From IMG/VR virus record IMGVR_UViG_3300045988_108820, positions 32,001-96,000 of that record: a stretch of DNA of 64,000 nucleotides; one strand, 5' to 3'. Position 1 is the stretch's first letter. Each line of letters begins with the position of its first letter. The notes beneath the pieces are model-generated. The model was not told the DNA's origin and did not search any database. It saw nothing but the letters and a program-made list of their open reading frames with translations. The position numbers were made by a program, and so were the translations under genes. Shown here in pieces: positions 3,039 to 62,251 of the stretch. The stretch is from a virus.

Positions 3039-3169
3039 ATGGCACGTGAATTTGTAATTTATAGGCAATACTAGACCTATAAATTTTGGTTCTACCTTTT
3101 ATTGTACAATTATTTTGATAGCCTGGAATTATTTGGATTTGGTAATTATAGTATTCTATTCCACCCATG

Positions 3170-3243
3170 TGGGCTAGTAGAGGATTGAACTCTAAACCTT
3201 CACAGTATCAGTGTGATGCTCTAACCAATTGAGCTACTAGCCT
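3170..3243 (-). tRNA. tRNA-Ile (anticodon GAT)
   Basis: AGGCTAG-TA-GCTC..GAGC, anticodon stem TCACA/TGTGA with loop CTGATAC, T arm TAGAG-TTCAATC-CTCTA, 3' acceptor strand CTAGCCC. This gives an A1-C72 mismatch. Confidence 0.85.
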
Positions 3244-3265
3244 ATAATGCTATTGTTTCACAACA

Positions 3266-3309
3266 ACAGCATTAATAAAACAGTATTAACAACCAAAACA
3301 GTATTAATA
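3266..3309. repeat. three direct copies of ACAG(C/T)ATTAA(T/C)A
   Basis: Copies at 3266-3277, 3280-3291 and 3298-3309, between the stop of gene 3344-3583 and the 5' end of tRNA-Ile(GAT). Confidence 0.5.
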
Positions 3310-3343
3310 AGACAAATTAACTTTAATGAAACCTACATAGATT

Positions 3344-3583
3344 CTATTCTTTATCTATTTTAAATAATTTATTGCATAAGTTAAAGCCTGAAATTATTTT
3401 GAGTTCAGGTTCAGTTATTAATAAAGCACAAGCTAATATTAATAAAGTATCTAATACTACTGTACTTAAGAAAATAAAATATCCCTTGTCTGCTATACTA
3501 TCTATACCACATATTGAAAACCATACTACTAGTATAGTAATCCACAATAAGATACCTTTTACAATTAATTTAATTCTTTTCAT
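3344..3583 (-). CDS. small membrane protein (two predicted TM helices)
   Basis: ORF track. Hydrophobic segments IKLIVKGILLWITILVVWFSICGI and YFIFLSTVVLDTLLILACALLI. Confidence 0.6.
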   Translation of the reverse strand: MKRIKLIVKGILLWITILVVWFSICGIDSIADKGYFIFLSTVVLDTLLILACALLITEPELKIISGFNLCNKLFKIDKE

Positions 3584-3878
3584 TGCTCTTGAAGTTTAGT
3601 TCTTTGTGTATTTGTTCTTTTATTTCTTTTGAAAGATATTGTTTATAAATTTTTCCAGTCCTCTTTGATTTTTTATTTACATAGACTGCCCCACTATTAG
3701 TAATATAAATAGGGTATTTATTACCACTTTTATCTTCCCAAATATATTTAGTTTGTTGTCCTTCACTCTTTGTAGTTTGAGAAGTTACAACTTTAAAGGT
3801 ATTACCTTCTCTTGTTACTTGAGCACAGCTTGTACAGCTTAATAAAGCTATAAACAAGCAGAAAATGAACTTTTTCAT
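3570..3878 (-). CDS. putative lipoprotein
   Basis: N-terminus MKKFIFCLFIALLSCTSC carries a signal peptide and lipobox (LLS-C). Confidence 0.65.
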   Translation of the reverse strand: MKKFIFCLFIALLSCTSCAQVTREGNTFKVVTSQTTKSEGQQTKYIWEDKSGNKYPIYITNSGAVYVNKKSKRTGKIYKQYLSKEIKEQIHKELNFKSNEKN

Positions 3879-3988
3879 TGTTTATTTTGTTTATTTTGTA
3901 TTATATACTTTATAAATATTACATAAGCTAACCATAATACTGCTATTTCTATTAATCCTAATATAGATTTTTGAAGTAAATAAATCAT
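3875..3988 (-). CDS. small hydrophobic peptide (37 aa)
   Basis: Hand-found ORF MIYLLQKSILGLIEIAVLWLAYVIFIKYIIQNKQNKQ. Its TGA overlaps the next gene's ATG (ATGA coupling). Confidence 0.4.
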   Translation of the reverse strand: MIYLLQKSILGLIEIAVLWLAYVIFIKYIIQNKQNKQ

Positions 3989-4072
3989 AATTTTAATTTT
4001 TTAAATCAGTAGAAATAGTTATATATTATTATTTTTACAAAGTTCTTGCAAAGGAAAAAGATAGATTGGAAT

Positions 4073-4117
4073 GGGAAAGATGATAGTTTATAAAATTTGC
4101 TTGACTATCATCTTCCC
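4073..4117 (-). terminator. strong hairpin downstream of gene 4129-4440
   Basis: GGGAAAGATGATAGT...ACTATCATCTTCCC: 14 bp with one bulge and a 16-nt loop, starting 12 nt after the stop codon. Confidence 0.6.
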
Positions 4118-4128
4118 AATATCAAATC

Positions 4129-4440
4129 TTAGAGACCAAGGTCTACATCTTCCCAAGAGCTATTACCTGGTTTGCAAAGCTTGAAGGTTCCTGACTCAAG
4201 CTCAACAACTTGCAAGCTGTCTTTCTGAGTAGCAATTTGCTGAGGTGTAAGCTCTCCAAGGTTAGAGCTGAAAGCTACAAGAGTAGTAACACCTTCAGAA
4301 TTAACAAAGGCACAAGACTTGAAAGGTTCACCAGTTTCCCTGTTTACAAAAGGAGCAACCTTCATCTTACCATGTGCTCTTGCAAAAGAAATCAAAGACC
4401 AAGAATTCTTAATACCTACATTCTGTGCTGTATTAGCCAT
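4129..4440 (-). CDS. hypothetical 103-aa protein, paralog A of a tandem pair
   Basis: ORF track. It aligns along its full length with the ORF at 5288-5599 (for example VAFSSNLGELTP, WEDVDLGL). Visibly higher G+C than its surroundings. It has its own upstream motif and its own terminator. Confidence 0.8.
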   Translation of the reverse strand: MANTAQNVGIKNSWSLISFARAHGKMKVAPFVNRETGEPFKSCAFVNSEGVTTLVAFSSNLGELTPQQIATQKDSLQVVELESGTFKLCKPGNSSWEDVDLGL

Positions 4441-4560
4441 AATAAACTATCCATTTCAGGACTACTGCATAAATTAAAGTATTATGCTACCTAGCTGCAT
4501 TACTAAATTAGATCATCAGAGACAGCTAACTTCTGATTAATCTTTTTCTATCAAAATATA

Positions 4561-4593
4561 GGTGGAGTTCTGTTTAGATTAGAACTTAACACA
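4561..4593 (-). promoter_or_regulatory. conserved upstream motif, copy 1 (candidate phage-specific promoter)
   Basis: The plus strand reads CAAAATATAGGTGGAGTTCTGTTTAGATTAGAA. The same block recurs at 5217-5249 and 5694-5729. It lies about 120 nt upstream of the ATG at 4440. Confidence 0.45.
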
Positions 4594-4816
4594 ATATAAA
4601 CTTATCACACTAAGCTATTGTTATGATTAGATTAGTTTAGTGTTAAATTACTAACACTATTAATATGGCATAACTTTTCTATTCTATGCAATAGTTTACA
4701 TGATTTAAACCTAACAATATTGCTCTAAGAAAGAAAAGAACCAAAAGAAAGAAACTATTATTTATTATTAATTTATATATTCCTAAAAGAAAGAAATATA
4801 TAAAGAAAGAAAAGGG

Positions 4817-4851
4817 TTTAAAAATAGTGTAAAGTTTGCACTCTACACTAT
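4817..4851 (-). terminator. rho-independent-type terminator after gene 4861-5160
   Basis: The reverse strand shows ATAGTGTA-12 nt-TACACTAT followed by TTTTT. Confidence 0.6.
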
Positions 4852-4860
4852 TTGTATTTA

Positions 4861-5160
4861 TCACTCACCTTTCAAGGTTGCAATGAGTTCATTCCTTACA
4901 TAGTTTGGCATCATTATGCAAGGGAAACTATCATTAAAGCTCATAGGACTCTCTACAACATGGAGGTCAAAGAAGCCCCTAGCACTAGAAGAAATAGATA
5001 TAGGAGTATTATCTCTTATAATTCCAAATTCTTCATAAGTAAGGTCTGTCTTAGTTATTTCAAGAACATCACCTTGAAACATAATAGTATCAAAAAGATA
5101 ATTTACAAGTTCATTACATACAAACTCTATAAGTTCATCACAGCTGTTCAAGACTCTCAT
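4861..5160 (-). CDS. hypothetical 99-aa protein (middle unit of the three-gene cassette)
   Basis: ORF track 4861..5181. I prefer the ATG at 5158-5160 (MRVLNSCDELIEF...). Confidence 0.6.
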   Translation of the reverse strand: MRVLNSCDELIEFVCNELVNYLFDTIMFQGDVLEITKTDLTYEEFGIIRDNTPISISSSARGFFDLHVVESPMSFNDSFPCIMMPNYVRNELIATLKGE

Positions 5161-5216
5161 AGTAAAGTATAGTTTCCACACTAGAGCAAACTAAAAAAGC
5201 TTTAAGTTATTTATAT

Positions 5217-5249
5217 CAAATTATAGGTGGAGTGTTGTTTGATTAGATA
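5217..5249 (-). promoter_or_regulatory. conserved upstream motif, copy 2
   Basis: The plus strand reads CAAATTATAGGTGGAGTGTTGTTTGATTAGAT. It sits directly after the terminator at 5251-5278 and about 56 nt upstream of the ATG at 5160. Confidence 0.45.
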
Positions 5250-5250
5250 A

Positions 5251-5278
5251 ATAAAAAGAGAGGAGCTAAGCTCCCCTC
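5251..5278 (-). terminator. rho-independent-type terminator after gene 5288-5599
   Basis: The reverse strand shows GAGGGGAGC-TTA-GCTCCTCTC followed by TTTTTATTT. Confidence 0.7.
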
Positions 5279-5287
5279 CCATCACTC

Positions 5288-5599
5288 TCAGAGTCCAAGG
5301 TCTACATCCTCCCAAGTGTCATGACCTGCCTTGCACAACTTGAAGTGTCCATTCTCCAGCTCAACCACTTGAAGTTCATCCTTCTGTGCTGCAATCTCTG
5401 CTGGAGTTAACTCACCAAGATTGCTACTAAAGGCTACCAAAGTTGTTACTTCATCAGAGTCAATGAATACACAACTCTTGAAATGCTCTCTGGTTTGCTT
5501 GTTGATGAATGGAGCTACTTTCATTCTGCCGTGAGTTTTAGCAAATGAGATTAATGACCGTGAGTTCTTGATACCTACTTCTGTTGCTGTTGTTGCCAT
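5288..5599 (-). CDS. hypothetical 103-aa protein, paralog B of a tandem pair
   Basis: ORF track. Full-length paralog of 4129-4440, also with elevated G+C. Confidence 0.8.
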   Translation of the reverse strand: MATTATEVGIKNSRSLISFAKTHGRMKVAPFINKQTREHFKSCVFIDSDEVTTLVAFSSNLGELTPAEIAAQKDELQVVELENGHFKLCKAGHDTWEDVDLGL

Positions 5600-5693
5600 A
5601 ATTATACATTTTAAGGGTTAATAATCAAAAGTATGTAAGAGTCATGCTAAGATTAGATACCTCAGCAAAGACCCCAGGGGATTATCCCCATTT

Positions 5694-5729
5694 CCAAAAG
5701 CTGGGTGGGGTGCTGTTGTAGATTATACC
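5694..5729 (-). promoter_or_regulatory. conserved upstream motif, copy 3
   Basis: The plus strand reads CCAAAAGCTGGGTGGGGTGCTGTTGTAGATTATACC, about 94 nt upstream of the ATG at 5599. Confidence 0.4.
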
Positions 5730-5778
5730 ACACTCCTACACATCAAATAAAAAAAAATAAAAAAAATTTCAAAAAAAA

Positions 5779-5810
5779 TTTGGTAATTACAAAAATTATC
5801 TATAACTTTG
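5779..5810 (+). promoter_or_regulatory. Bacteroidota-type promoter for the plus-strand tRNA array
   Basis: TTTG (5779-5782)-N20-TAACTTTG (5803-5810), preceded by long A-tracts. Confidence 0.65.
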
Positions 5811-5949
5811 CATAGTTAATTAATAATAATAGTCCCAACTATTAATAGTAATAACACTTAATGGGGCTTTAACCTTTCTGAGAGGTTGATGTTGTTTGTT
5901 GTTTGTGTTAATTAAACCTCCTTAATCTGGGAAGATGGAAGAGGTACAT

Positions 5950-6021
5950 GGAGCCATCATCTAATGGTTAGGATACAAGATTTTCAACCTTGAAATAGGG
6001 GTTCAATTCCCCTTGGCTCTT
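5950..6021 (+). tRNA. tRNA-Glu (anticodon TTC)
   Basis: GGAGCCA-TC-ATCT..GGAT, anticodon stem CAAGA/CCTTG (A-C at its base) with loop TTTTCAA, T arm AGGGG-TTCAATT-CCCCT, 3' acceptor strand TGGCTCT. Confidence 0.85.
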
Positions 6022-6025
6022 CAAT

Positions 6026-6099
6026 AGACTATGAAGTGTAATGGTTTTGCATACCACACTGTCAATGTGGTGGATGGGGTTCAATTCCCCCATAGTCTG
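6026..6099 (+). tRNA. tRNA-Asp (anticodon GTC); folds best with an 8-bp acceptor and 4-bp T stem
   Basis: AGACTATG/CATAGTCT, D stem GTGT/GCAT, anticodon stem CCACA/TGTGG with loop CTGTCAA, T arm GGGG-TTCAATT-CCCC. Confidence 0.8.
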
Positions 6100-6101
6100 C
6101 T

Positions 6102-6296
6102 ATGATAAAAATATTAAGAAAGGAGGGTTGGATATTAAACCCTAATGATAAAATAGTAAATGCTATTTTAAAAAGAGTAGAATTAAATAATGGAGAGTGT
6201 CCTTGTCAAAATGATAGTAGTGATAAGCATTGTCCATGTACAGATTATAGAGATAAAAACTTATGTCATTGTAATCTCTATATCAAGTCAGAGTAA
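6102..6296 (+). CDS. ferredoxin:thioredoxin reductase catalytic-subunit-like protein (64 aa)
   Basis: ILNPNDKIVNAILKRVELNNGECPC-x8-CPC-x8-CHC resembles the FTR catalytic chain signature (lnPd..v...gL...CPC-x16-CPC-x8-CHC), but the first spacer is shortened. The ATG lies 2 nt after the tRNA-Asp 3' end. Confidence 0.55.
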   Translation: MIKILRKEGWILNPNDKIVNAILKRVELNNGECPCQNDSSDKHCPCTDYRDKNLCHCNLYIKSE

Positions 6297-6318
6297 TATC
6301 TACTCTAGAACTAACTAA

Positions 6319-6391
6319 GGGGTGAGTGATGTAATTGGTAACATACTTCCTTTGCAAGGAAGAATTAAGGGTTCAAATCCCTCTTGCTCCA
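6319..6391 (+). tRNA. tRNA-Ala (anticodon TGC); G3-U70 present; folds best with an 8-bp acceptor and 4-bp T stem
   Basis: GGGGTGAG/CTTGCTCC, TG, D stem ATGT/ACAT, anticodon stem CTTCC/GGAAG with loop TTTGCAA, T arm AGGG-TTCAAAT-CCCT. Confidence 0.85.
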
Positions 6392-6415
6392 CAATATTAA
6401 CTATAATTTATTAAT

Positions 6416-6520
6416 ATGAAAAAGATTTTATCTTTATTTAAAAGGGGACTTAATGCCTATTTAAATGCATTAGCTAAATGTCCTTATGTACCGTCAGGAA
6501 CTATCCCAATGGGAGTTTAG
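6416..6520 (+). CDS. possible 34-aa peptide
   Basis: Hand-found ORF MKKILSLFKRGLNAYLNALAKCPYVPSGTIPMGV between tRNA-Ala and tRNA-Asn. No other support. Confidence 0.25.
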   Translation: MKKILSLFKRGLNAYLNALAKCPYVPSGTIPMGV

Positions 6521-6553
6521 TTCCTTTAATTTAGAATTAATACTATAATATAT

Positions 6554-6626
6554 TGGCATATAGTATAAAGGTTTATTACGATTGACTGTTAATCAATGAA
6601 TCAAGGTTCGAGTCCTTGTATGCCAG
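6554..6626 (+). tRNA. tRNA-Asn (anticodon GTT)
   Basis: TGGCATA/TATGCCA with discriminator G (as in bacterial tRNA-Asn), anticodon stem ATTGA/TCAAT with loop CTGTTAA, T arm CAAGG-TTCGAGT-CCTTG. Confidence 0.85.
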
Positions 6627-6647
6627 CATAGAAAAATAATATATAAT

Positions 6648-6878
6648 ATGTGGTTATTGGAAAGTAATAGATCTAAACACCTACTTTATGCAATACCTTC
6701 AGCCTATATAGGTACTATATTATTTAGTACTGGTTTAGCTTTTGGTATGGAGTTTAAAGATAAACAATATGGTGGTAAATTTGATTGGCTTGATATAGCT
6801 GCTACTATGATAGGTGGTATAGTTGGTCAATTATTGCAGGTTAGTATGATAAGTTTAATCTATTTAACATTTAATTAA
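6648..6878 (+). CDS. small membrane protein (two TM helices)
   Basis: ORF track. Hydrophobic segments LLYAIPSAYIGTILFSTGLAFG and IAATMIGGIVGQLLQVSMISLIYL. Confidence 0.55.
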   Translation: MWLLESNRSKHLLYAIPSAYIGTILFSTGLAFGMEFKDKQYGGKFDWLDIAATMIGGIVGQLLQVSMISLIYLTFN

Positions 6879-6879
6879 T

Positions 6880-6969
6880 ATGGAAGCACTTAATGTTATA
6901 ATTGGTATTGTAGGTAATGCAATAGTACTAGGTCTTATGTATTATTTTCTGGTAAAAAAGAAAGAATAA
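6880..6969 (+). CDS. possible 29-aa hydrophobic peptide
   Basis: Hand-found ORF MEALNVIIGIVGNAIVLGLMYYFLVKKKE. Its ATG lies 1 nt after the preceding stop codon. Confidence 0.35.
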   Translation: MEALNVIIGIVGNAIVLGLMYYFLVKKKE

Positions 6970-6979
6970 TACTTAGGAT

Positions 6980-7065
6980 GCCTCCATGTTGGAATTAGTA
7001 GACAAGTTAGACTTAAAATCTAATAATCAGTAATGATTATGTGGGTGCAAGTCCCACTGGAGGTA
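6980..7065 (+). tRNA. tRNA-Leu (anticodon TAA), second copy, class II; T loop TGCAAGT
   Basis: GCCTCCA/TGGAGGT, anticodon stem TTAGA/TCTAA with loop CTTAAAA, variable arm AATCA-GTAA-TGATT, T arm GTGGG-TGCAAGT-CCCAC (G where the near-universal U55 is expected). Confidence 0.8.
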
Positions 7066-7066
7066 C

Positions 7067-7131: not shown

Positions 7132-7132
7132 A

Positions 7133-7215: not shown

Positions 7216-7247
7216 CTAAAAATAATTATAAAAAACTTATAAAAAAG

Positions 7248-52903: not shown

Positions 52904-55900
52904 TTAGCAAAGTTTTTTATATTCTTCTTCTATAGTTTTTTCATCAAATTTAATTCCAAGAACTTCAAGTCTAGATTTCATGAACTTCTTAACTTGTGAT
53001 TCAATAGCCTTCTTAAACTCATTGTCCATATTTTTATAATTTTGGATAGTACTTTCTGCATCTGCAAGTGTTTTACCCTTCGTCATATATATTTGGTGTA
53101 ATAAGTCTATTTGCTCTTGTTCACTATTAGTAGATTCATCTAACTTAGTTTCTCTATCCACATCTGGATTATTAATCTCTGATTTTGTATTATCTTCCAA
53201 GGATACTGAAGGAATCTCAAGAGGTTTCTCAATTCCATCAATGCTAATCTCTAGATAGTCTTTGTTACTTCCAAGAGGATTAATTTCTTTGTACTCAATA
53301 GATTCATCTTTTGATAGAACTTGCTGATATAATTTATCAACATTATCTACTCTCATTTTAAAATATTGAGTTTTCTGAAGATCTTTAACATCACTCTCTT
53401 TATATACTTCAAAGTTACCATTCTCAAGCTTTCTCATAACAAGATTTTTCTTTCTAGGAACAAGCTTGTTATTGTCCCAGTTATTTCTAATAAACTGGTC
53501 AAGGACTATCTCAGGTGTGCTACTTGGGAGTACTCTAAATGTATCAACATAACTACTAAGTCTCTCTTTCACATATACAGGAACTAAACTCATAAAGGTT
53601 TTAGGAGAAAATCCTATTCCAGCTCTAAAGAAACAGTACTTAAAGAGTTTTTCAGATAATTCTGGATTCACTCTATGAAGGTCAATCCAAGCACTACTTA
53701 GTCTTTCTTTTTGTAGAATATCAAGACCAGTAATATCAACCTGAAGAGTGGCTCTACCTCCTTTATCAGTTCCATATTTTATAGACTGAATGAGAAGATT
53801 ATTTTTATACTGTTCTTTGTAGTTTTTCTCCATAAACTCCTTAGGGAACTCTGATATAGTTTTACCTAAATCATTTGATTTTACTACATTACCTGCTACA
53901 ACAAGATAGGACTGATAGAAGTCACTTAAACTACTAAGAATTTTTCTATCACCGAGAATAACATCACCTATTGGATTTTCACTAGCATAAGTGAGGATAT
54001 TTCTAAATCCTGTACTATTAGCTGGCATACTACTAAATAAGCCTTGTGCTATTCCTAATGTTTTTCTAAATTGATTTAGAATAGGATGTGCAAGGAAGAT
54101 ATCATTAATACTAATTTCCTCTCCATCTGAGCCAAGAATATTACTCTCAGAAGAAAGCTTTTCCATTTTATGCTCGGTGATTAAATTATCAATAATCAAT
54201 GGACCCACTGCACTACTTATTGAGTTAAATCTAGTAGCAAATGTAGGCATCCTCATAGCGTCAGCAAGTCTTTGAAAGTTTCTAAATGACTTAAGAACTT
54301 TGTATTCAATTCTTGAATCCCTTGATTTTACACCTTTAATTAATTGCTCTCTAGTAAGTTCTTCTTCATTAAGTAAACTATTCTCATCAATATTTAGATC
54401 TTTCTCTATTTTCTTTATCCTATTTTCAACTACTTTACTTAAAGAAGTAAATCCTGTGATATTTTCACTACTAAATTGATTAAGAACATCTGATATAACT
54501 CTTTGAGATAAGAAGAGAGCAGCATCATCAAAAGGCATTCCAAGTCTTACAAGAGTATTAAGAATATTAGCTGTATTACTATTAATATTCATCAAGTTAA
54601 GTACAGGATCTTTAACAGCATCAGCTGCACTAGCAACTAAACTACCAAGTACTTTACCAACTGATTGTCCACTATTATCAAGTCTAACATCAATAGGCAT
54701 ATTACCTCCAAAAGTCATATCTGCTACAGTAAATGGTCTAGTAAGGTTACATGCATTATCTACATTCATCATATATCCTTCATTCTCTATTACTGCATGA
54801 GCAGTTCTATTAACTGCAAAGATACCAATAAGAGAACCAGCAGCACTATTTTGTTTGTAGAATTGTATATGAGTATCAATAAACATAAGATTCTTATCTT
54901 TACTACTTAAATCCTTGAGTTCATCAATAGACATCTTACTTAATTCATCATAGCTTTTGTCAGTAGTTCTAAGAGCAGTTACAAGATAACCCATTCTCTT
55001 TTGTGGGTCAAAGCCACCTGGATTTAGCATTTCTGCACAACTAGTTTCATGTGTTAATACCTCATAAGTCATATCAACAATCTTATTATTTCTATAAGTT
55101 CTTCCTTCTGTAGGTTTATTAACAGTAAAAGCATTTTGTAAATATAACTTAAGTAACTTACTATAAGAATTACTAGGAATTGACATGAATCCTTCAGCTG
55201 TCTTTTGATTAACTAGAGAGGCTCTATCAAATGGGTCTTCAAGAAATTGTCTAACCAAATCATTAAGTTTGCTTTTAACATTATAACTTAGTTTCCCTTT
55301 TTGAGACTCAACTAGAGAATCATATAATATTTTATGAAGAGCAGATTTAGTAATTTTATTTTTAGAAATACTGTAATCTTTTCTCATAAGATACTCCTTA
55401 TCAACATCAAAGTCTGAACCTGTGAGTAGTGTAATATCACTAGGTAACATAATACCATCACCAGCTTCTCTAGGTAAGAAACCCACAATCTTCAAAGGAG
55501 CCATACTATATTTAGCTTCAGTAGGAATTCTATAGCCAATCATCTTTAATAAATCAGGGTCAAGAGCTTCCAATGCTTCTATGCTAATGTTACCATTCTT
55601 ATCAGCGAATTGACTGAATAGATTGTTAGCATATATAGGAGCAAATACCTCAAAGTAAGCAATACCTCCTTGATTTTCTTTTATATAATCTTTATAGGAC
55701 ATTGTACCTTCAGAAACCTTTAATCCTTTGTATTTAGCATTAAATTTATCAGTTTGAGAAAGTTCTTTCTTTATAGGATTTTTTTCATATTCTGCTCTTG
55801 TTTTTAATAAACCTCCATTCTTGTCTTTAAATCTAATATTAAGTTCTCTAGAAGTACCAAAGTTAGTAACCTGTACAACAGGACCACCAGCTATTTCTTG

Positions 55901-58900
55901 TTTATTAACTCTATTCTTTATAACAGAGTTGACTAATTGTTCAACTCTTTTACTCTGAATAGGATCTCCAAGAGGTATTCTAAATCTACCATTTTCATCA
56001 ACCGAACAAGCTTGTAAGAGATCTATACCATATCTAGGACTGGATAATATTTCTCTTTGTAATATCTTACTAAGAGCTATATTTCTATCTTTTGTATTAG
56101 TACTTTGAAGACCTAGAGCACTCTCTAAACCACTTATACTATCTTCAATATTATCTGCAATAGTTTGTTCATACTCAGACTTAAATTCATCAGCAGATAT
56201 TTTTTTACCTTCAACTTCATAGGTTGCATCATTTCCAAAGCTATCTTTTGTAGCAAGTTCTGATACTACAATATATCTCAATTGGGAGCCATGAACTTGC
56301 TCATGATTCTTAAAGTGCTCAGGCACTTCTTGTTGTAAACAATAGTCTTCAAAAGGTAGCTCTTGAACATAAGTTTGATTATATTTACCTGTTTTGGTAT
56401 CTATAGTCACATCCTCAAGTTTTCCAGTCTCTTGGTTAGTTCTTTGGATTGTTTTAGGAGCTGTCTCATATATACAAGCCTCCATAACAGCTTTGGCTTT
56501 AGCTTCTCCATTGACATCATTAATATATTTATTAAGATTAATTCTGCCCATTAAGCCAGACTTTACAGTTGACTCAAACTGAACAGTATCAATACCATCT
56601 GTCTTATAGTTACCATCTTCATCATAGTGACTTTCTTCCATTACTTCATAGATTGCTCTAAGTAGGTTTGGTCTACCAGTGTTCTCATTTTGAAGAATAG
56701 CATCAGCCATTATAAGAAGATATTCAGAGTTTTTATTCTGTACAGGTATTTTAAGCTTATCAAGGGGAGCATTAGGTACACCAGAAGACTTTTCTATTTG
56801 ACTATAAACAAAGGGCTTTAGTGGTTGAAACGCTACACTTAGATCACTATAATTGTAATCTCCCTTTCTAAGTTTTTGATATATTTCTTCTGCCTTTTTA
56901 CTCCATTTACCAAAAATAAATGCTTTCTTTCTATATGATGTTGGAGAAGAATATCCTTGAGCATCTGCTACATTTATTTTTCTAAATGCACCATCTTTAC
57001 CTACAAGAGAGTCTTTTAATACTCTATAACCATCTTTTTCAGCTTCTGGAGCTTCAGCTATCTTTCTATCAAAAACAATTGATACATTGTCAATGATATT
57101 AGATACAAAGTCATCCCAGTCTTTAAGATAGAAGGTTCTTTCCTTTCCATCAGAGACTTTACTACCTTCATAGTCTGTAGCATCTACATTACCTCTTATA
57201 CCTGGAGCATGGATTTGTGCTAATCTCTTTTGTAAATCTTCTGCATCCTTATAATAGGCAATATCAGTTACAGTTAATTCCATTATGTTCATAGCTGCAA
57301 AAGTATCATTCCAAACAAAGTTTTCAAGATTAGATTTAATCTCTTCCTCTGTAGTACCAATACCTGAGATTTTCTTAGCTCCTTCCATAAGACCAGAGTT
57401 AATCCAATTCTCTACAATGGATTTAGCTCTAGTGTCTAAAGTATCAAAGATAGCTTTATTAGCAAGTTCATATAACTTAGCTTCATCTACTTCTTTACCA
57501 TTGATTTTATTGTTTATAAGTTTACCTAATTCACTATTCTTTTTATCTCCAGTAAGATAATCATTCATAAAGTCAAGGAAGCAGAACTTTTTACCATTTT
57601 TATCAAAATTCTTTATGAATCTTGGACCTTTACTATCGAGGTTTCTCATCAGTACGGTTTGGATTCTACTTAACTCTTGATTAAATATGTCCATCATACC
57701 ATCTGTAATAGTTTCTCTATAGTTAATACCTCTTTCACTATAAAACCTTATGAATTCAGAAGATGGCTTATTAGATAACATAGGCACCCTAAACCAAGCA
57801 GGTACTCTTGATTGTTTATCATTTGCACCTTCTGAAAAATACTCTGTAAGTAATGAGAGTGCATACTCCATATCACTCATATTCTTCATATAATTGTGCT
57901 TATTGAAACTGAGTTGTACTTTATGTTTAAAAACACTTCTAGCTTTACTATCAGTAGCTAAAGTTCTAAGCCAACTGTTTCTCCAACCTCTTTCAATATC
58001 TGTGCCTTCATGAAACCATGGTTGGTTTGCATACTCCTCGGTCAGAAAGTCATCAAAAGCCTGTCCCTCTTGACTAAATTTTTGCATTAACTTAGACATA
58101 TAAGAAGGAGTTACATAACTTTGATACATTTTACCATTATCATAAAAGGCAGAAATTGCAATATCTTCTAAGTGTTCTGTGATAGGCTTTAAGAACTCTC
58201 TCATATTACCATTGATACTATCTTTAGCCTTAAACTTGAAAGGTTCATAAGAAGCATTATCAAGATTATTTTCAAAAGATCTTATCATGTATCCTAAAGC
58301 ACTATACATCTTTTTAAAAGTTTCACTCGTAAGATTACTCTTTACCATATCAGGAGTTACATAATAACCAAATAAGCTTGAAATATAATCTAAAGTATTA
58401 GCAACTTCATCTTTATCAACTTCTTTAGATAAATCATATCCTGTATGCCTAAACTTTTCAAGACTGTCATAAGCAGATTTAAGTTCTCCAAATGATTTTT
58501 TATTTATACCCTCAGTAGTAAATAATGGATGTTCTCCTATTTTATACTGAGTTGTGACTTGCGTCATGGCTTCACTAAGAGCAGGATTTTCATTTACTGA
58601 AATACTTTTATATTTTCCATCTTCTTCAATTACTGTTGAATATGATTGAAATGGCTTAAAGAATGTTCCGTAGAATTGACTCTGAAAATCAGTCTCTTTA
58701 CCAGAAGTATCAGATAATCTATCAATAAGTTGTTTAACCCAAGGATTATCTTTCTGCTTTCCTTGTAATTTAGTTATTGCACTAGCCAAACTTAATGAGC
58801 CTTGTGTCCATCTAAGTATAGAATTAGTTGCTTCTCTTACATTTATTCTTTCATTGATACCAAACTCTGATTGTACATTGTTCCCATCTTTATCAAGAAT

Positions 58901-61900
58901 ATAACATTTAAGTAAGGCTTTCCTAACCAATTGAGACATAGTTTCAAGTATATCTTGACATCTAGATTCTAATTGCCAATGCTCTTGAAGATTACCTTCA
59001 ATTTCTTCCACACTTGCCTGGTCATTAGATTCATTAAAGTTATCTGCATCACCCACAAGATCTTCATTGACTTCATTAACTTTCCCATCAGGTGTGGATA
59101 CTATACTAAAATCTTCAAAGTTTAAGAATGAACTTTGTGCAAGTAACATTACAGCTTGCCAATTATCAGTAATAGCAGTAGCTTTATCTATTGTATCAAA
59201 GTTGTCAAAGTCATTATGTTCAGGAGAAAACTTCTGTCTGCACATTTCAATTATATTGTCAACTCCAATAGTTCTAACTACATCTGCTCTAGTCATAGAG
59301 GCAAAATCTTTGTCAGTACCATCCTTATTTTTAAACCTATCACCATAGATAGTTTTAGCTGCCTCTGGATTTTCTTGCAATTCAGTAATATGGTCTGAAA
59401 TCCAATATACAGCTTGTTCAGCTATATGTCTTACTTCTGTTGCAGAAAGGAGACTATCTCCTAAAAGGTTGTCTATTTGTTGCATCTTATCTTGTTGTTT
59501 TAATGTATATAAATCTTGTTCTTTTTCTTTTCTATCTATCTGTGAAGTTTCTTCTTGAGTACCATCTTCAGTATTAGCTACTTGAACATTAGTAGTAGTT
59601 TGTAGATTATTATCCTGAGACTCTTGCTTATTTAATCTAATACCTTTCTCTAGTTCTATTCTATGAATAGCATCTAAAGTAGCTCTCTTCTCTACTTCTA
59701 TTTTGTTAGGTGAAAGCCAATCTATTGCATAAGGAACTAAACTACCATAAGTATCTCTTATATCTCCTTCATAATAGTCTTTACCACTATCCTCCCAATA
59801 CTTATGACTTAATTCATGATATGTTACTAAATTTTTAGCATCTTCATCAGTTTGAATTATTTCTCTTAGTCTTTCTTCTGTATATCCTTCCTTTGCTAAT
59901 TCTTTAAAGACTACCCTTTTTTGTTCTGATGTGCTACTAGGGACTTCACCTTTAATATATTTAAAAACATCTTCTTTACTAAGATTCCTAGCAACTACTA
60001 TATTACCACTCCTAGTAAATCCAAGTTTTCCATTTAATATTTTCTCATCAGTAGTTTCATTTATAGGAGCTTGAAATTTAGAGTACTCTTCAAAAGTTCC
60101 ATCACTCTTAAGATAATCACTACTACCTTTGGAGTAATCATAAATACCCCCTCTTAAGTTTTTATTAGCAGAATTAAAATACTCTTGTGAAATAGAAATA
60201 ATTTCCTCTAAAGCTGAATCTTTTATATCTATTCCTTGAGATTTAAACATTTTATTAAATAAATTAGTAAGATAATTTATAAATCTCTTAAAAGCATTTT
60301 CTTTCTTACCTAACTTTATTTTACTTAATTCTACTTGAAAGGCTCTATCTGTTAAAGCTACAGCTACAAATTCTTTAGCATTAGTTAATCCATACCACTC
60401 AGTTCCCTTTAATTGTTCTTCACATTGTAGATATAGATTCCATACATTATTAGAAAATTCTGTTTGTACTTTATTAAAGTTCTTTATTTTAGACCAAGAA
60501 GGGTGATAATTTAAAATCTCAGCAGTAACAGCATGAATTAATTCGTGAGTTAATACCTTCATAATACCTCCCTTTACATTAGCTTTATCATCTGTCATTA
60601 GATAATCTAATAATAAAGCAGGATTAATTCTTATTGTAGCTGTTCTAAAATTATCTTGTTTTCTACTAGCTATACCATCTAAATTAGAGTCTATAAGTAT
60701 ATTTATAGGAATATTATTATTTCTTAATATCTCAACTACTTGTTTAAATAATTGGTGATATGGATTAGTAGGTTTTACTTTACTTAAAAACTCATCAATT
60801 AAAGAGTTATTTAGAGTAATACCTTCCTGCTTTAATATAGCTATAGCTCTCTCTCCCTCTATAGCATTCTCAATAGAGTCCCCTGATATATAGTCTTCCC
60901 TATTAAGCAATTCTAACTCCTTATTAATTTCTTCTTGTCTTGAGAAAGCTTGCTTTTTATGCCATTTATCTATTAAATTATCAGCTAACTTAGGGTTTTT
61001 TAATTCTGATAAAACATTATCTAGTTCTTTTAAATTGTGAATTATATTACCCTTATCATCAACTTTTATTCTAGTATTATAGCTTTTATTAAATCCAGCT
61101 GCCTTTCTTCTTAATGCTCCTACTTTTCTTTCTAATGGAAGATTTTTAAAGTCTTCTTTAGCTATATCCATTAGACTTAGAACATTACTAAGATTTTCTC
61201 TCTCTTTCTCTATAGACTTTATTCTATCATCTATTTTACTCTGTAATTGTGTCTTAGATTCTCCCTTATAAGAAATTCCAAGAGCTGATTTTTCTTCATT
61301 ATAATAATCTATTCTATCATCAGTTCTGGAGAAGGTTCCTATATTACTCTCAGCTGATTTAATTTGATTTGGGGTTGGAACAACTATTTCTTCATATCTC
61401 CCCTCAGCACCTGAATATAACACACCATCATATTCTTCCGTATTACCTATTCCCCTATTAAAGTTTTCAGCTAATTCCACATTTTTAATAGCTTCTTTCA
61501 TACTTATATTAGGATCTGTCCCTGCTCTTAATGGTTTTTTTATATTTACAAATAATTTCATTATATTACCATATTGAGCAGCTTTATTCTCTACGGAAGA
61601 TAAATATAATCCTTTACCATAGTATCCATCATCTGTGTTTTTACCAAACATTTTAGTATCTAGTATATTCCACTTACTATTGGTACCATGATAAACAACT
61701 AAAGGTTCACCATTTTCATCTACTACTTTAGAAGCATTCTCTGGGTCATTTTCCCAATCACCAAACCAACCTTTAAATTCTTTAGTTCTAACCTGAGCAT
61801 ATTGTCTTTCATCAAGATTAGACTTTTTACCGTTAGGAGCTAATAAATTACCTTCTGAGTCTCTTTTAGCATTAGATAAAATATACTTATATTCTGACTC

Positions 61901-62251
61901 AAATGTGGGATTTCCTATCATTAAATCATAAGTTCCATTTTTTCTCTCTACAATAGAAATACTATCCTTTCCAAATATTTTAACTGCATTGTTATACTCC
62001 TCATTAGCTAAGATTAGTGTGGGAAAGTTAATAGGAGATGAGTATTGCTTCTCCCATACTTCAATCATATTATGGTCTCCAGTAAAAGACTTTGGCTTGA
62101 GTAAATTATTTACTTCTTCTGCACTTGGAAATCTATCACTATTCTCAGAATTTTGTATCTTATGAATAATTAGTTCTAGAGCAGATGAGGATATATCTAC
62201 CTCATCAAGTAAAGTTTTAAACTCTCTTGAATTAATATTAACACAACTCAT
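52904..62251 (-). CDS. giant polyvalent protein containing the virion RNA polymerase (3115 aa)
   Basis: GYRIPTEAKYSMAPLKIVGFLPREAGDGIMLPSDITLLTGSDFDVDKEYLM aligns by eye with the catalytic double-psi beta-barrel of multisubunit RNAP beta-prime ([46 protein letters not shown]). The size and the N-terminal accessory domains fit crAss-like virion RNAPs. Confidence 0.85.
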   Translation of the reverse strand: MSCVNINSREFKTLLDEVDISSSALELIIHKIQNSENSDRFPSAEEVNNLLKPKSFTGDHNMIEVWEKQYSSPINFPTLILANEEYNNAVKIFGKDSISIVERKNGTYDLMIGNPTFESEYKYILSNAKRDSEGNLLAPNGKKSNLDERQYAQVRTKEFKGWFGDWENDPENASKVVDENGEPLVVYHGTNSKWNILDTKMFGKNTDDGYYGKGLYLSSVENKAAQYGNIMKLFVNIKKPLRAGTDPNISMKEAIKNVELAENFNRGIGNTEEYDGVLYSGAEGRYEEIVVPTPNQIKSAESNIGTFSRTDDRIDYYNEEKSALGISYKGESKTQLQSKIDDRIKSIEKERENLSNVLSLMDIAKEDFKNLPLERKVGALRRKAAGFNKSYNTRIKVDDKGNIIHNLKELDNVLSELKNPKLADNLIDKWHKKQAFSRQEEINKELELLNREDYISGDSIENAIEGERAIAILKQEGITLNNSLIDEFLSKVKPTNPYHQLFKQVVEILRNNNIPINILIDSNLDGIASRKQDNFRTATIRINPALLLDYLMTDDKANVKGGIMKVLTHELIHAVTAEILNYHPSWSKIKNFNKVQTEFSNNVWNLYLQCEEQLKGTEWYGLTNAKEFVAVALTDRAFQVELSKIKLGKKENAFKRFINYLTNLFNKMFKSQGIDIKDSALEEIISISQEYFNSANKNLRGGIYDYSKGSSDYLKSDGTFEEYSKFQAPINETTDEKILNGKLGFTRSGNIVVARNLSKEDVFKYIKGEVPSSTSEQKRVVFKELAKEGYTEERLREIIQTDEDAKNLVTYHELSHKYWEDSGKDYYEGDIRDTYGSLVPYAIDWLSPNKIEVEKRATLDAIHRIELEKGIRLNKQESQDNNLQTTTNVQVANTEDGTQEETSQIDRKEKEQDLYTLKQQDKMQQIDNLLGDSLLSATEVRHIAEQAVYWISDHITELQENPEAAKTIYGDRFKNKDGTDKDFASMTRADVVRTIGVDNIIEMCRQKFSPEHNDFDNFDTIDKATAITDNWQAVMLLAQSSFLNFEDFSIVSTPDGKVNEVNEDLVGDADNFNESNDQASVEEIEGNLQEHWQLESRCQDILETMSQLVRKALLKCYILDKDGNNVQSEFGINERINVREATNSILRWTQGSLSLASAITKLQGKQKDNPWVKQLIDRLSDTSGKETDFQSQFYGTFFKPFQSYSTVIEEDGKYKSISVNENPALSEAMTQVTTQYKIGEHPLFTTEGINKKSFGELKSAYDSLEKFRHTGYDLSKEVDKDEVANTLDYISSLFGYYVTPDMVKSNLTSETFKKMYSALGYMIRSFENNLDNASYEPFKFKAKDSINGNMREFLKPITEHLEDIAISAFYDNGKMYQSYVTPSYMSKLMQKFSQEGQAFDDFLTEEYANQPWFHEGTDIERGWRNSWLRTLATDSKARSVFKHKVQLSFNKHNYMKNMSDMEYALSLLTEYFSEGANDKQSRVPAWFRVPMLSNKPSSEFIRFYSERGINYRETITDGMMDIFNQELSRIQTVLMRNLDSKGPRFIKNFDKNGKKFCFLDFMNDYLTGDKKNSELGKLINNKINGKEVDEAKLYELANKAIFDTLDTRAKSIVENWINSGLMEGAKKISGIGTTEEEIKSNLENFVWNDTFAAMNIMELTVTDIAYYKDAEDLQKRLAQIHAPGIRGNVDATDYEGSKVSDGKERTFYLKDWDDFVSNIIDNVSIVFDRKIAEAPEAEKDGYRVLKDSLVGKDGAFRKINVADAQGYSSPTSYRKKAFIFGKWSKKAEEIYQKLRKGDYNYSDLSVAFQPLKPFVYSQIEKSSGVPNAPLDKLKIPVQNKNSEYLLIMADAILQNENTGRPNLLRAIYEVMEESHYDEDGNYKTDGIDTVQFESTVKSGLMGRINLNKYINDVNGEAKAKAVMEACIYETAPKTIQRTNQETGKLEDVTIDTKTGKYNQTYVQELPFEDYCLQQEVPEHFKNHEQVHGSQLRYIVVSELATKDSFGNDATYEVEGKKISADEFKSEYEQTIADNIEDSISGLESALGLQSTNTKDRNIALSKILQREILSSPRYGIDLLQACSVDENGRFRIPLGDPIQSKRVEQLVNSVIKNRVNKQEIAGGPVVQVTNFGTSRELNIRFKDKNGGLLKTRAEYEKNPIKKELSQTDKFNAKYKGLKVSEGTMSYKDYIKENQGGIAYFEVFAPIYANNLFSQFADKNGNISIEALEALDPDLLKMIGYRIPTEAKYSMAPLKIVGFLPREAGDGIMLPSDITLLTGSDFDVDKEYLMRKDYSISKNKITKSALHKILYDSLVESQKGKLSYNVKSKLNDLVRQFLEDPFDRASLVNQKTAEGFMSIPSNSYSKLLKLYLQNAFTVNKPTEGRTYRNNKIVDMTYEVLTHETSCAEMLNPGGFDPQKRMGYLVTALRTTDKSYDELSKMSIDELKDLSSKDKNLMFIDTHIQFYKQNSAAGSLIGIFAVNRTAHAVIENEGYMMNVDNACNLTRPFTVADMTFGGNMPIDVRLDNSGQSVGKVLGSLVASAADAVKDPVLNLMNINSNTANILNTLVRLGMPFDDAALFLSQRVISDVLNQFSSENITGFTSLSKVVENRIKKIEKDLNIDENSLLNEEELTREQLIKGVKSRDSRIEYKVLKSFRNFQRLADAMRMPTFATRFNSISSAVGPLIIDNLITEHKMEKLSSESNILGSDGEEISINDIFLAHPILNQFRKTLGIAQGLFSSMPANSTGFRNILTYASENPIGDVILGDRKILSSLSDFYQSYLVVAGNVVKSNDLGKTISEFPKEFMEKNYKEQYKNNLLIQSIKYGTDKGGRATLQVDITGLDILQKERLSSAWIDLHRVNPELSEKLFKYCFFRAGIGFSPKTFMSLVPVYVKERLSSYVDTFRVLPSSTPEIVLDQFIRNNWDNNKLVPRKKNLVMRKLENGNFEVYKESDVKDLQKTQYFKMRVDNVDKLYQQVLSKDESIEYKEINPLGSNKDYLEISIDGIEKPLEIPSVSLEDNTKSEINNPDVDRETKLDESTNSEQEQIDLLHQIYMTKGKTLADAESTIQNYKNMDNEFKKAIESQVKKFMKSRLEVLGIKFDEKTIEEEYKKLC
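55400..55414 (-). other. DxDxD metal-binding motif (DFDVD, aa 2280-2284) of the RNAP catalytic barrel
   Basis: Reverse-strand codons GAC TTT GAT GTT GAT. Confidence 0.8.
59804..59818 (-). other. second HExxH motif (HELSH, aa 812-816)
   Basis: Sequence context LVTYHELSHKYWEDSG. Confidence 0.45.
60533..60547 (-). other. HExxH zincin motif (HELIH, aa 569-573), MPTase-PolyVal-like
   Basis: KVLTHELIHAVTAEIL, with a downstream NAKEFVAVALTD (candidate third ligand Glu). Confidence 0.6.
61367..61789 (-). other. ADP-ribosyltransferase domain (ART-PolyVal-like, aa ~155-295)
   Basis: TKEFKGWFGDWEN...SKVVDENGEPLVVYHGT...GKGLYLSS...RYEEIVVPTPNQIKSAESNIGTF is the H-Y-E type pattern typical of ART domains in phage polyvalent proteins. 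Confidence 0.65.

What the first reader, a model, noticed from the sequence alone, without database searches (positions are those of the whole stretch)
4561..5729. A private ~33-nt motif precedes each of three insulated minus-strand mini-genes: candidate non-host (virion-RNAP?) promoter
Three copies of one block are visible on the plus strand:
- 4561 CAAAATATAGGTGGAGTTCTGTTTAGATTAGAA
- 5217 CAAATTATAGGTGGAGTGTTGTTTGATTAGAT
- 5694 CCAAAAGCTGGGTGGGGTGCTGTTGTAGATTATACC

On the coding (minus) strand the consensus is roughly TAATC..AACA..AC(T/C)CCACC....TTTG.

Each copy lies about 55-120 nt upstream of a minus-strand start codon (4440, 5160, 5599). Copy 2 sits directly after the terminator of the preceding unit, so the block is placed where a promoter would be.

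The block does not fit the TTG-N19-20-TAnnTTTG host-type promoters I find at ten other places in this window, including ahead of the RNAP gene itself. Copy 3 has no TA at all in the -7 position.

crAss-like phages are known to deliver a virion RNA polymerase that transcribes early genes, and the matching polymerase gene is in this window (52904-62251). A dedicated promoter class for these genes is therefore plausible.

The sub-motif GATTAGAT also recurs at 4626-4640 and 5651-5658, inside the presumed leaders.
Basis: partly seen in the sequence, partly recalled or inferred. Interest (0 to 1): 0.75.

Follow-up and report, generated by a model that had tools for sequence, protein, structure and literature searches.

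The report
Private early-promoter motif of crAss-like phages
A 29-33 base DNA block that this gut phage and its relatives keep only in front of their first-expressed small genes is most likely a phage-specific early promoter, and is a concrete candidate for the still unknown promoter of the RNA polymerase that crAss-like phages inject with their DNA.

Summary
Three same-strand copies of one block lie at 4552-4584, 5217-5249 and 5695-5727 (minus strand). Nothing else in the 64 kb window resembles them, and the complete 101 kb genome of the nearest relative (cr116_1) has the block only at the same three places.

The block is not a recent local duplication. It precedes a duplicated 103-aa gene family in about 31 of 37 related phage loci, always on the gene's strand. 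Across 35 diverged instances conservation is confined to positions -29 to -1, ending in TATAnnTTG followed by a purine. It lacks the host TTG/TAnnTTTG layout, forms no hairpin, matches no Rfam family and was not found in bacterial chromosomes.

In 13 of 15 diverged loci a perfect host-type promoter sits 51-163 nt away on the opposite strand. crAss001 has the same divergent layout. There, published RNA-seq puts the gene on the motif side in the 0-10 min class and the gene on the host-promoter side in the 30-60 min class.

I read the block as the early promoter (about 0.7). Use by the virion RNA polymerase is inferred, not shown (about 0.4-0.45). The main rivals are an unusual host-RNAP promoter, an RNA-level leader element and an operator.

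The parts
5695..5727 (-). Motif copy 3 (class A): TATAATCTACAACAGCACCCCACCCAGCTTTTG. It is the first element of the leftward block and heads the paralog-2 unit.
5217..5249 (-). Motif copy 2: TATCTAATCAAACAACACTCCACCTATAATTTG. It lies directly after the terminator of the preceding unit and heads an unrelated 99-aa gene.
4552..4584 (-). Motif copy 1 (class B): TTCTAATCTAAACAGAACTCCACCTATATTTTG. It heads the paralog-1 unit.
5291..5599 (-). 103-aa protein, paralog 2 (74% identical to paralog 1). Function unknown.
4864..5160 (-). 99-aa protein unrelated to the paralogs. An ortholog is present in cr116_1.
4132..4440 (-). 103-aa protein, paralog 1. The family has 1607 relatives in the large protein collection and no Pfam, PHROG, PADLOC or PDB match.
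5256..5280 (-). Intrinsic-terminator-like hairpin (11 pairs) followed by a T-run. It ends the paralog-2 unit.
4823..4852 (-). Hairpin ATAGTGTA...TACACTAT followed by TTTTT. It is the likely terminator of the 99-aa unit, read by eye.
4066..4125 (-). 22-nt inverted repeat after paralog 1, closing the third unit.
   Evidence: (I14)
5677..5689 (-). GGGG-N5-CCCC hairpin 6 nt after copy 3. It is invariant in all class-A copies and is also present in crAss001 and IAS virus.
4493..4527 (-). Conserved hairpin in the class-B leader: 6 pairs, 3 of them with compensatory changes, and a conserved 23-nt loop.
5780..5810 (+). Canonical host-type promoter TTG-N20-TAACTTTG pointing the other way (tRNAs, regulators, structural genes). 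It is the contrast partner of copy 3.
52904..62251 (-). 3115-aa ORF with DFDVD at residue 2280: the crAss-type virion RNA polymerase and candidate reader of the motif.

Best explanation
The block is a phage-specific promoter that starts the immediate-early transcription units at the head of the leftward gene block.

Anatomy, which is shown: a contiguous element spans about -29 to -1, with consensus AA-N4-AaACA-N-CACccC-N-CCTATAttTTG. The window's clade writes it as TAATC-(T)AAACA-nnAC-yCCACC-yAnn-TTTG. A purine follows. After that comes a conserved leader of 56-190 nt and then the start codon. Each unit is closed by a hairpin.

Mechanism, which is inferred: an RNA polymerase other than host sigma-A holoenzyme binds the CA-rich block plus TATAnnTTG and starts within a few bases of the TTG. 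The best candidate is the two-barrel virion RNAP encoded at 52904-62251 and delivered with the DNA. This would give transcripts within minutes of infection, while the perfect host-type promoter 60-160 bp away on the other strand fires only later.

My confidence that it is an early promoter is about 0.7. My confidence in the full statement, including the virion RNAP, is about 0.42.
For: 1. Exclusivity. The window has 3 sites and the complete cr116_1 genome has 3. All lie in the first 1.2-2.2 kb of the block that runs on into the replication genes. A strict form of the pattern occurs once per contig in 20 IMG/VR contigs.

2. Conservation. The block is found 89-192 nt upstream of the 103-aa family gene in about 31 of 37 loci, always on the gene's strand. 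Extra copies precede unrelated small genes. Across 35 instances that are less than 80% identical, information content is about 1.0 bit per position from -29 to -1, against 0.1-0.2 in both flanks.

3. It is not host-type. No copy has TTG-N17-21-TAnnTTTG. In 13 of 15 diverged class-A loci a perfect host-type promoter lies 51-163 nt upstream on the opposite strand, and in 0 of 15 on the same strand.

4. Timing by synteny. crAss001 has the same divergent layout: a host-type site at 240-270 (+) and a class-A-like CA/C-rich block plus GGGG-N5-CCCC hairpin at 179-120 (-). In its published dataset crAss001_1, on the motif side, rises by log2 8.2 and 11.1 at 0-10 min. crAss001_3, on the host-promoter side, rises by 9.3 and 8.6 at 30-60 min (PMC8375218 supplement).

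5. Where the transcript starts. In far-clade class-B leaders an RNA hairpin begins at +1 or +2 after the TTG. The stem sequences differ between phages (z = -4.9, -3.8, -5.2, -2.6, -2.0).

6. Copy 2 begins 8 nt after a terminator T-run, leaving no room for another promoter.

7. The strict pattern was not found in bacterial chromosomes. All 5 hits in 596 Gb lie in MAG bins of unrelated taxa. Three sit directly upstream of the phage's 103-aa gene on contigs that look like mis-binned phage DNA. The other two contigs were not resolved.

8. Precedent. phi14:2 early genes are rifampicin-resistant and transcribed by the virion RNAP (bioRxiv 10.1101/2020.03.07.982082). The P23-45 virion RNAP has its own promoter motif near one genome end (PMC10770324).
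Against: No transcript 5' ends or rifampicin data exist for any phage carrying the motif.

In phi14:2, which belongs to the same subfamily, early transcripts had no detectable common upstream motif. I found no copy in its first 9 kb.

The crAss001 element is only loosely similar (PWM 9.3 bits), so the timing argument rests on synteny and architecture.

The 3' end TATAnnTTG(G) is within one mismatch of TAnnTTTG in many copies, so a weak host -7 box cannot be excluded.

Several class-A copies have a T-tract ending in TTTG 12-26 nt upstream that could be a host -7 box. That would put the motif inside the transcript.

The window's own copies 1 and 2 lack the 5' hairpin seen in the far clade.
Confidence: 0.42

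Rival explanations
1. It is a promoter, but host RNA polymerase reads it. Either sigma-A uses TATAnnTTG as an off-register -7 box, with the CA-rich block serving as the site of a host or injected activator, or an alternative host sigma factor is involved.
For: Many copies are within one mismatch of TAnnTTTG when the following G is included (TAnnTTGG). The -33 element is weakly conserved in Bacteroidetes (PMC7366714). B. thetaiotaomicron has at least one uncharacterised second promoter class, PM2. Many phages use host RNAP for early genes.
Against: Conservation is continuous through what would be the spacer, which is unusual for sigma-type promoters. There is no TTG at -33 in any copy. The same phages keep perfect host-type promoters 51-163 nt away on the other strand, and in crAss001 those fire late while the motif side fires at 0-10 min. 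The strict motif was not found in bacterial chromosomes. PM2 is described as near-palindromic, and this block is not.
Confidence: 0.25
2. The block is transcribed and acts as RNA. It would be an unstructured CA-rich leader element, for example a processing or stability site or a nut-like antitermination site. It would sit downstream of a host-type promoter in the T-rich region and be reached in the later units by read-through of the hairpins.
For: Class-A copies often have a T-tract ending in a near or perfect -7 box 12-26 nt upstream: TAGATTTG in L014, TAATTTTG in IAS, TTTATTTG in the window. In class A the block is followed by a small 4-5 bp hairpin with a 5-nt loop, a layout reminiscent of boxA plus boxB. 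Every unit ends in a hairpin that antitermination could override.
Against: The distance from those T-tract boxes to the block is variable. Class-B and copy-2-type instances have no upstream -7 box, and copy 2 starts 8 nt after a terminator. No pairing partner or structure involves the block. There is no Rfam match at E <= 1. The 3' half looks like a -10/-7-type element, and conservation stops exactly where the 5' hairpins begin.
Confidence: 0.15
3. The CA-rich block is mainly an operator. A phage DNA-binding protein would bind it to switch the early units on or off, next to a minimal promoter. Candidates are one of the regulators encoded at 7516-8341 or the 103-aa proteins themselves. This can coexist with the first two readings.
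For: Sequence-specific conservation runs over about 18 nt just upstream of a -10-like element. CACC-type direct repeats lie inside the block. crAss001 early transcripts fall after 30 min. In the window's clade the sub-motif TCTAATC recurs near the promoters and in the leaders.
Against: The block has no dyad symmetry. The putative regulators belong to the late-side unit in crAss001. Nothing links the 103-aa proteins to DNA binding: there is no family match and the structure model was unusable.
Confidence: 0.1
4. The block is a functionless by-product of a local gene duplication.
For: Two of the three downstream genes are paralogs that are 74% identical.
Against: The block is conserved while its flanks are not, across phages whose proteins are only 50-60% identical. 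It also heads unrelated genes. The two paralog classes (A and B) are each found across the clade, so the duplication is old.
Confidence: 0.02

Closest known systems
Coliphage N4 early promoters read by the injected virion RNAP
   Same: Only about three copies per genome, clustered at the head of the early region. They are unrelated to the host consensus. The polymerase is a giant virion protein encoded in the same genome.
   Different: N4 promoters are DNA hairpins (5-7 bp stem, 3-nt loop; from my own knowledge). This block shows no hairpin potential (z between -1.3 and +0.75). The N4 enzyme is T7-like, whereas the crAss enzyme is a two-barrel polymerase.
Pre-early promoters of the Thermus phage P23-45 virion RNAP (PMC10770324)
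   Same: The virion RNAP is of the two-barrel type and has its own short conserved DNA motif. The motif is found only upstream of the first genes near one genome end and is conserved in relatives that carry the polymerase.
   Different: That motif is described as AT-rich, whereas this one is CA/C-rich with a TATAnnTTG end. The P23-45 motif was defined from mapped start sites and ChIP, this one from sequence comparison only.
T7-type phage promoters (from my own knowledge)
   Same: A contiguous block of about 20-30 bp is conserved right up to the start. Initial transcribed bases are purine-rich (GGAG...). The transcript begins with a 5' stem-loop. Units are insulated by terminators.
   Different: No T7-like single-subunit RNAP gene was noted in the window (I ran no dedicated search). 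The sequences are unrelated.
Bacteroidetes sigma-ABfr promoter: -33 TTTG, -7 TAnnTTTG (PMC7366714)
   Same: It ends in TTTG/TTG preceded by TA-containing AT-rich bases. It has the same orientation and lies upstream of genes.
   Different: The TA-to-TTG spacing is off by one. There is no -33 TTG. The would-be spacer is strongly conserved. True host-type promoters occur beside it on the other strand.
Middle/late promoters of crAss-like phages reported for phi14:2 and relatives (bioRxiv 10.1101/2020.03.07.982082)
   Same: Same phage group, and the motif was found by comparison across genomes.
   Different: Those are host-like (-35/-10-type blocks, transcribed by sigma-70 holoenzyme in vitro) and lie upstream of middle and late genes and tRNAs. 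They correspond to the TTG...TAnnTTTG sites in this window, not to this block.

Membership tests
Bacteroidetes sigma-ABfr (host) promoter | -7 box TAnnTTTG | tested here: not met
   None of the three copies has it. The 8-mers ending in TTTG are ATATTTTG, ATAATTTG and AGCTTTTG. Relatives have TATAnnTTG.
Bacteroidetes sigma-ABfr (host) promoter | -33 TTG/TTTG placed 17-21 nt upstream of the -7 box | tested here: not met
   No TTG at that position in any copy. TAATC/TAAG occupies it. No same-strand canonical promoter was found upstream in 0 of 15 loci.
Bacteroidetes sigma-ABfr (host) promoter | Transcription start about 4 nt after the G of the -7 box | not testable with these tools
   There is only indirect evidence: leader hairpins begin at +1 or +2 after the TTG.
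N4-type virion-RNAP early promoter | Short DNA hairpin at the promoter | tested here: not met
   Twelve instances were folded as DNA. The z-scores ran from -1.26 to +0.75 and the register was not consistent.
N4-type virion-RNAP early promoter | A few copies confined to the early end of the genome | tested here: met
   Three copies lie within 1.2 kb here and within 2.2 kb in the complete cr116_1 genome, with none elsewhere.
Virion-RNAP promoter in general | Rifampicin-resistant initiation by the injected polymerase at this sequence | not testable with these tools
   This needs infection experiments or in vitro transcription. The polymerase gene is present, with DFDVD.
Early-class promoter | Downstream genes are expressed in the first minutes of infection | tested here: inconclusive
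   There are no data for this phage. The syntenic crAss001 gene behind a class-A-like element is early (0-10 min), and the divergent host-type side is late.
Known structured RNA families (Rfam 15), including antiterminator or leader RNAs | Covariance-model match | tested here: not met
   Only tRNAs and chance-level hits were found in 3000-8000 at E <= 1.
Lambda-type nut site | boxA sequence followed by a boxB hairpin in the early transcript, plus an N-like protein | tested here: inconclusive
   Class-A copies are followed by a GGGG-N5-CCCC hairpin. Class-B and copy-2 types are not. No N-like protein was identified.

The most novel reading that the evidence does not exclude
This block is the long-sought promoter of the crAss-type two-barrel virion RNA polymerase, at least for the clade around cr116_1, IAS virus and their IMG/VR relatives. 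It would be a linear CA-rich element of about 29 bp ending in TATAnnTTG at -1, present in only two to four copies per 100 kb genome. It would drive the very first phage transcripts, which encode a duplicated 103-aa protein of unknown function behind structured leaders.
Probability: 0.4. Interest if true: 0.85.

Novelty: new variant of a known kind. Interest (0 to 1): 0.7.

Why it matters
crAss-like phages are the most abundant viruses of the human gut. All of them inject a giant RNA polymerase, yet no promoter for that enzyme has been described. The phi14:2 study found no common motif upstream of early transcripts. A 2023 review of the order does not contain the word promoter. My six literature searches found no later description.

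A short, sharply bounded, phage-private element at the head of the early block gives a defined template for in vitro transcription and for structural work on promoter recognition by a two-barrel single-chain polymerase. It is also a marker for finding early genes in uncultured Crassvirales, and a candidate orthogonal promoter for Bacteroides engineering.

It also points to the first proteins these phages make: a duplicated 103-aa family with no known relatives.

Tried and rejected
- N4-like promoter hairpin: folding 12 instances as DNA gave no signal.
- Known RNA family: the Rfam scan was negative.
- Sigma-70-type scan: 59 sites against 51.7 expected, so uninformative for a Bacteroidetes host.
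- Function of the 103-aa proteins: no Pfam, PHROG, PADLOC or PDB match. The AlphaFold model had pLDDT 48.8, so I ran no fold search.
- Homology between crAss001 gp1 and the 103-aa family: hhalign probability 0.2, rejected.
- More copies of the crAss001 element in its early region: none.
- Motif in phi14:2: none seen in the first 9 kb. One of its two 'long non-coding' early regions is a tmRNA gene.
- Consensus folding of the far-clade 5' hairpins failed because the alignment was poor. Folding the sequences one by one worked.
- Supplementary motif file of the phi14:2 paper and the final Nature version: not held.
- The GATTAGAT/TCTAATC sub-motif: only weak local enrichment.
Full report
**What is there**

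Reading 3800-6500 on both strands confirms three copies of one block on the minus strand:
- TTCTAATCTAAACAGAACTCCACCTATATTTTG at 4584->4552
- TATCTAATCAAACAACACTCCACCTATAATTTG at 5249->5217
- TATAATCTACAACAGCACCCCACCCAGCTTTTG at 5727->5695

Copy 1 starts at 4552, not 4561.

A degenerate consensus allowing three mismatches finds only these sites in 64 kb, against 0.03 expected. Position weight matrix (PWM) scores are 23-24 bits with a matrix built from relatives, and 37-42 bits with a clade-specific matrix. The best shuffled or non-motif sites score 10.3 and 7.5 bits.

The blocks lie 111, 56 and 95 nt upstream of ATG codons at 4440, 5160 and 5599. The genes at 4132-4440 and 5291-5599 are 74% identical paralogs of 103 aa. 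The gene at 4864-5160 is unrelated. Each unit ends in a hairpin:
- 5280-5256 plus a T-run, 8 nt before copy 2
- 4852-4823 plus TTTTT
- the inverted repeat 4125-4066

**Where the window comes from and how it is laid out**

The window is a crAss-like phage. Its nearest relatives are uncultured phage cr116_1 and IAS virus (Steigviridae, Asinivirinae).

- Plus-strand genes run from about 5950 to 49015: tRNAs, regulators and structural genes.
- Minus-strand genes occupy 64000->49058. They include a 3115-aa ORF with the DFDVD catalytic motif of crAss virion RNAPs.
- The small-gene and tRNA block 5729->1 is also on the minus strand.

In the complete cr116_1 genome the block that begins with the 103-aa genes continues through the replication module to the RNAP genes. 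The three units are therefore the very first genes of the long leftward block. They face a divergent control region at 5730-5950.

**Conservation**

The 103-aa family occurs as two paralogs per genome in every related contig examined. Thirty-seven IMG/VR loci were recovered with a family alignment.

A PWM grown from the upstream copies finds the block 89-192 nt upstream of the family gene in about 31 of 37 loci, always on the gene's strand. Further copies sit in front of unrelated small genes.

More distant phages write it as (T/C)AAG-GGACACAYCACCACCCC-TATAWYTTG-R (class B) or as GATAAT-ACCACACACCACCCCCACC-ATAWYTTG-GATTGGGATATACCCC (class A).

Over 35 instances less than 80% identical to each other, information content is about 1.0 bit per position from -29 to -1, counted from the G of TTG. 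It is 0.1-0.2 bit on both sides.

The A and B classes are each found across the clade, so the duplication is old. The shared core (ACA-N-CACC-N2-CC-N-ATA-N2-TTG) has been kept in both lineages.

There was a duplication, but the block is conserved well beyond it.

**Exclusivity**

- The complete 101 kb genome of cr116_1 has the block at three places only (record 3914, 4409 and 6070, all within 2.2 kb). The middle one is degenerate, and the next-best site scores 12 bits or less.
- A strict pattern (ACACAYCACCNNYCCTATAWYTTG) occurs once per contig in 20 IMG/VR contigs.
- In 596 Gb of bacterial and archaeal genomes the strict pattern has five hits, all in MAG bins of unrelated taxa. At least three sit directly upstream of the 103-aa gene on what look like mis-binned phage contigs. 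The other two contigs were not resolved.

So I found no sign that it is a host sequence class.

**It is not the host promoter type**

Canonical TTG-N17-21-TAnnTTTG sites occur 15 times in the window, against 8.2 +/- 3.1 in shuffles. Clear intergenic examples lie at 5780-5810, 7249, 13313, 19813, 22671, 29955 and 37217 (+) and at 62307-62277 (-, ahead of the RNAP ORF).

None precedes the three units. Their 3' ends are TATATTTTG, TATAATTTG and CAGCTTTTG, and TAATC sits where a -33 TTG would be.

The telling comparison is local. In 13 of 15 non-redundant loci with a class-A copy, a perfect host-type promoter lies 51-163 nt upstream on the opposite strand. In none is there one on the same strand. 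These phages write textbook host promoters for the rightward unit and something else for the leftward one.

**Timing, by synteny with crAss001**

crAss001 has the same divergent region:
- A host-type site at record 240-270 (+).
- On the minus strand at 179-120, after T-tracts, ACACCAACCCCACCTCCCCCATCACTTAG followed by GGGGTCCTACCCC. This is a loose class-A counterpart (PWM only 9.3 bits).
- This element precedes gp1. gp1 is frameshifted at the record junction but intact (86 aa) in PhiCrAssBcn22. It is not homologous to the 103-aa family.

IAS virus shows the same design in front of its first leftward gene.

The published crAss001 time course lists log2 changes between successive time points, two runs each (PMC8375218 supplement):

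| Gene(s) | Side | Change | Interval | Class |
|---|---|---|---|---|
| crAss001_1 | motif side | +8.2 / +11.1 | 0-10 min | early |
| gp97-104 | motif side | +7 to +14 | 0-10 min | early |
| gp91-94 | further along the leftward block | +7 to +9 | 10-30 min | middle |
| crAss001_3 | host-promoter side | +9.3 / +8.6 | 30-60 min | late |

Two promoters about 60-160 bp apart on the same DNA thus fire half an hour apart. The consensus host-type one is the late one. DNA entry timing cannot explain that. It fits a different polymerase, or a very different recognition mode, on the early side.

This step is inference by synteny. No expression data exist for a phage with the strict motif.

**Where transcription probably starts**

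Conservation stops at the TTG and is followed by purines: GGAG..., GATTGGG..., ATAG....

In far-clade class-B leaders the RNA immediately after TTG folds into a hairpin. Its first paired base is +1 or +2. The stems differ in sequence between phages (z = -4.9, -3.8, -5.2, -2.6, -2.0).

Class-A copies carry an invariant GGGG-N5-CCCC hairpin from +6.

In three phages a weaker copy is followed by AT-ATG, the start codon of a small membrane protein. Any start there must lie within 2-3 nt of the TTG.

Together this points to a start at or just after the TTG. A conserved block abutting +1 is the geometry of phage-specific polymerase promoters. A host -7 box is centred at -7 (PMC7366714). The window's own copies 1 and 2 lack such a 5' hairpin, so this argument is moderate.

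**Alternatives considered**

- An N4-type promoter hairpin is not supported.
- No Rfam family matches.
- A host promoter with a conserved activator site, or an alternative sigma factor, remains possible. Many copies are one mismatch from TAnnTTTG if the following G is counted. B. thetaiotaomicron has an uncharacterised second motif (PM2), though that one is described as near-palindromic.
- An RNA-level reading is suggested by T-tracts ending in a near or perfect -7 box 12-26 nt upstream of several class-A copies. The spacing is variable. Class-B and copy-2 types have nothing comparable, and copy 2 abuts a terminator.
- An operator role can coexist with any of these.

**What is known**

For phi14:2 the virion RNAP transcribes rifampicin-resistant early genes. 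Primer extension found no common motif upstream of early transcripts. The host-like middle/late motif was the only one reported (bioRxiv 10.1101/2020.03.07.982082). A 2023 review of Crassvirales does not mention promoters, and my searches found nothing later. The two-barrel virion RNAP of Thermus phage P23-45 does have its own promoter motif near one genome end (PMC10770324), so the concept has precedent.

**Verdict**

The reading as a non-host promoter class is well supported, and I add that it marks the early block. Use by the virion RNAP is plausible but untested.

I rate it a new variant of a known kind (phage-specific early promoters), with interest 0.7. It offers a concrete, testable candidate for an open question in the biology of the commonest human gut phages.

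Noticed in passing
window 4493-4527 (-); alignment A2: The 5' leader of the class-B paralog holds a conserved hairpin (AGCTGT...GCAGCT). Three of its six pairs covary across phages (GC/AU/UA, AU/GC, UA/AU), and the 23-nt loop is conserved (CYYTGA...TATT). It could be a translational operator or a protein-binding site.
   Followed up: partly
window 4725-4812 (minus strand CTTTTCTTTCTTTATATATTTCTTTCTTTT...): A pyrimidine-rich repeated tract about 150-250 nt upstream of copy 1. It is conserved in cr116_1, L003, L004, L005 and L021 in front of class-B copies. Its function is unknown.
   Followed up: no
L072 (phi14:2, NC_021806) 4031-4500 (+): ARAGORN calls a tmRNA gene (tag GSSVQKLAMVA*) inside the g005-g006 'long intergenic region'. 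The phi14:2 study reported that region as a highly and persistently transcribed non-coding RNA of unknown function.
   Followed up: partly
L047/L048 (crAss001 MH675552) record junction; L071 1710-1970: crAss001 gp1 (49 aa as annotated, spanning the record ends) is a frameshifted version of an 86-aa ORF that is intact in PhiCrAssBcn22. The cause is probably a one-base problem at the circularisation junction. The minus-strand gp2 annotation (279-680) lies downstream of a perfect plus-strand host-type promoter (240-270) and may be on the wrong strand.
   Followed up: partly
L001 (cr116_1) 6420-6734 (-) = record about 4058-4372: The second 103-aa paralog is not annotated in the cr116_1 record. In IAS virus the single homolog is duplicated and disrupted by an untrimmed repeat of about 150 nt at the record junction.
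   Followed up: partly
window 5163-5205 (-); L001 about 5722-5770 and 6066-6110 (-): A repeated element lies directly before several start codons: AAAGCTYTTTYAGTYTGCTCTAGTRTGGARACTRTA, containing a CAGTTT...AAACTG hairpin. It precedes the 99-aa gene here and two genes in cr116_1.
   Followed up: no
window 5626-5633 (-): A perfect host -7 box (TACTTTTG) lies inside the class-A leader, 27 nt before the ATG at 5599. It is conserved in cr116_1 and one base off (TACCTTTG) in L002, and is not seen in the distant class-A leaders I read. It may be a second, host-read promoter for paralog 2.
   Followed up: no
IMG/VR contigs of L010-L046: The locus lies within 10% of contig length from a contig end in 15 of 33 contigs (binomial P about 8e-4 against 20% expected). 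In crAss001, IAS and cr116_1 the records also begin at or near it. The physical genome end, or a terminal repeat, may be close to the early promoters. Incomplete contigs confound this.
   Followed up: partly
window 4597-4640 (-): About 45 nt upstream of copy 1 is CTAAACTAATCTAATCATAACAATAG. It resembles the 5' half of the motif (TAATC-TAAACA) and is conserved in cr116_1, L002 and L003. It may be a decayed extra copy or a regulator site.
   Followed up: no
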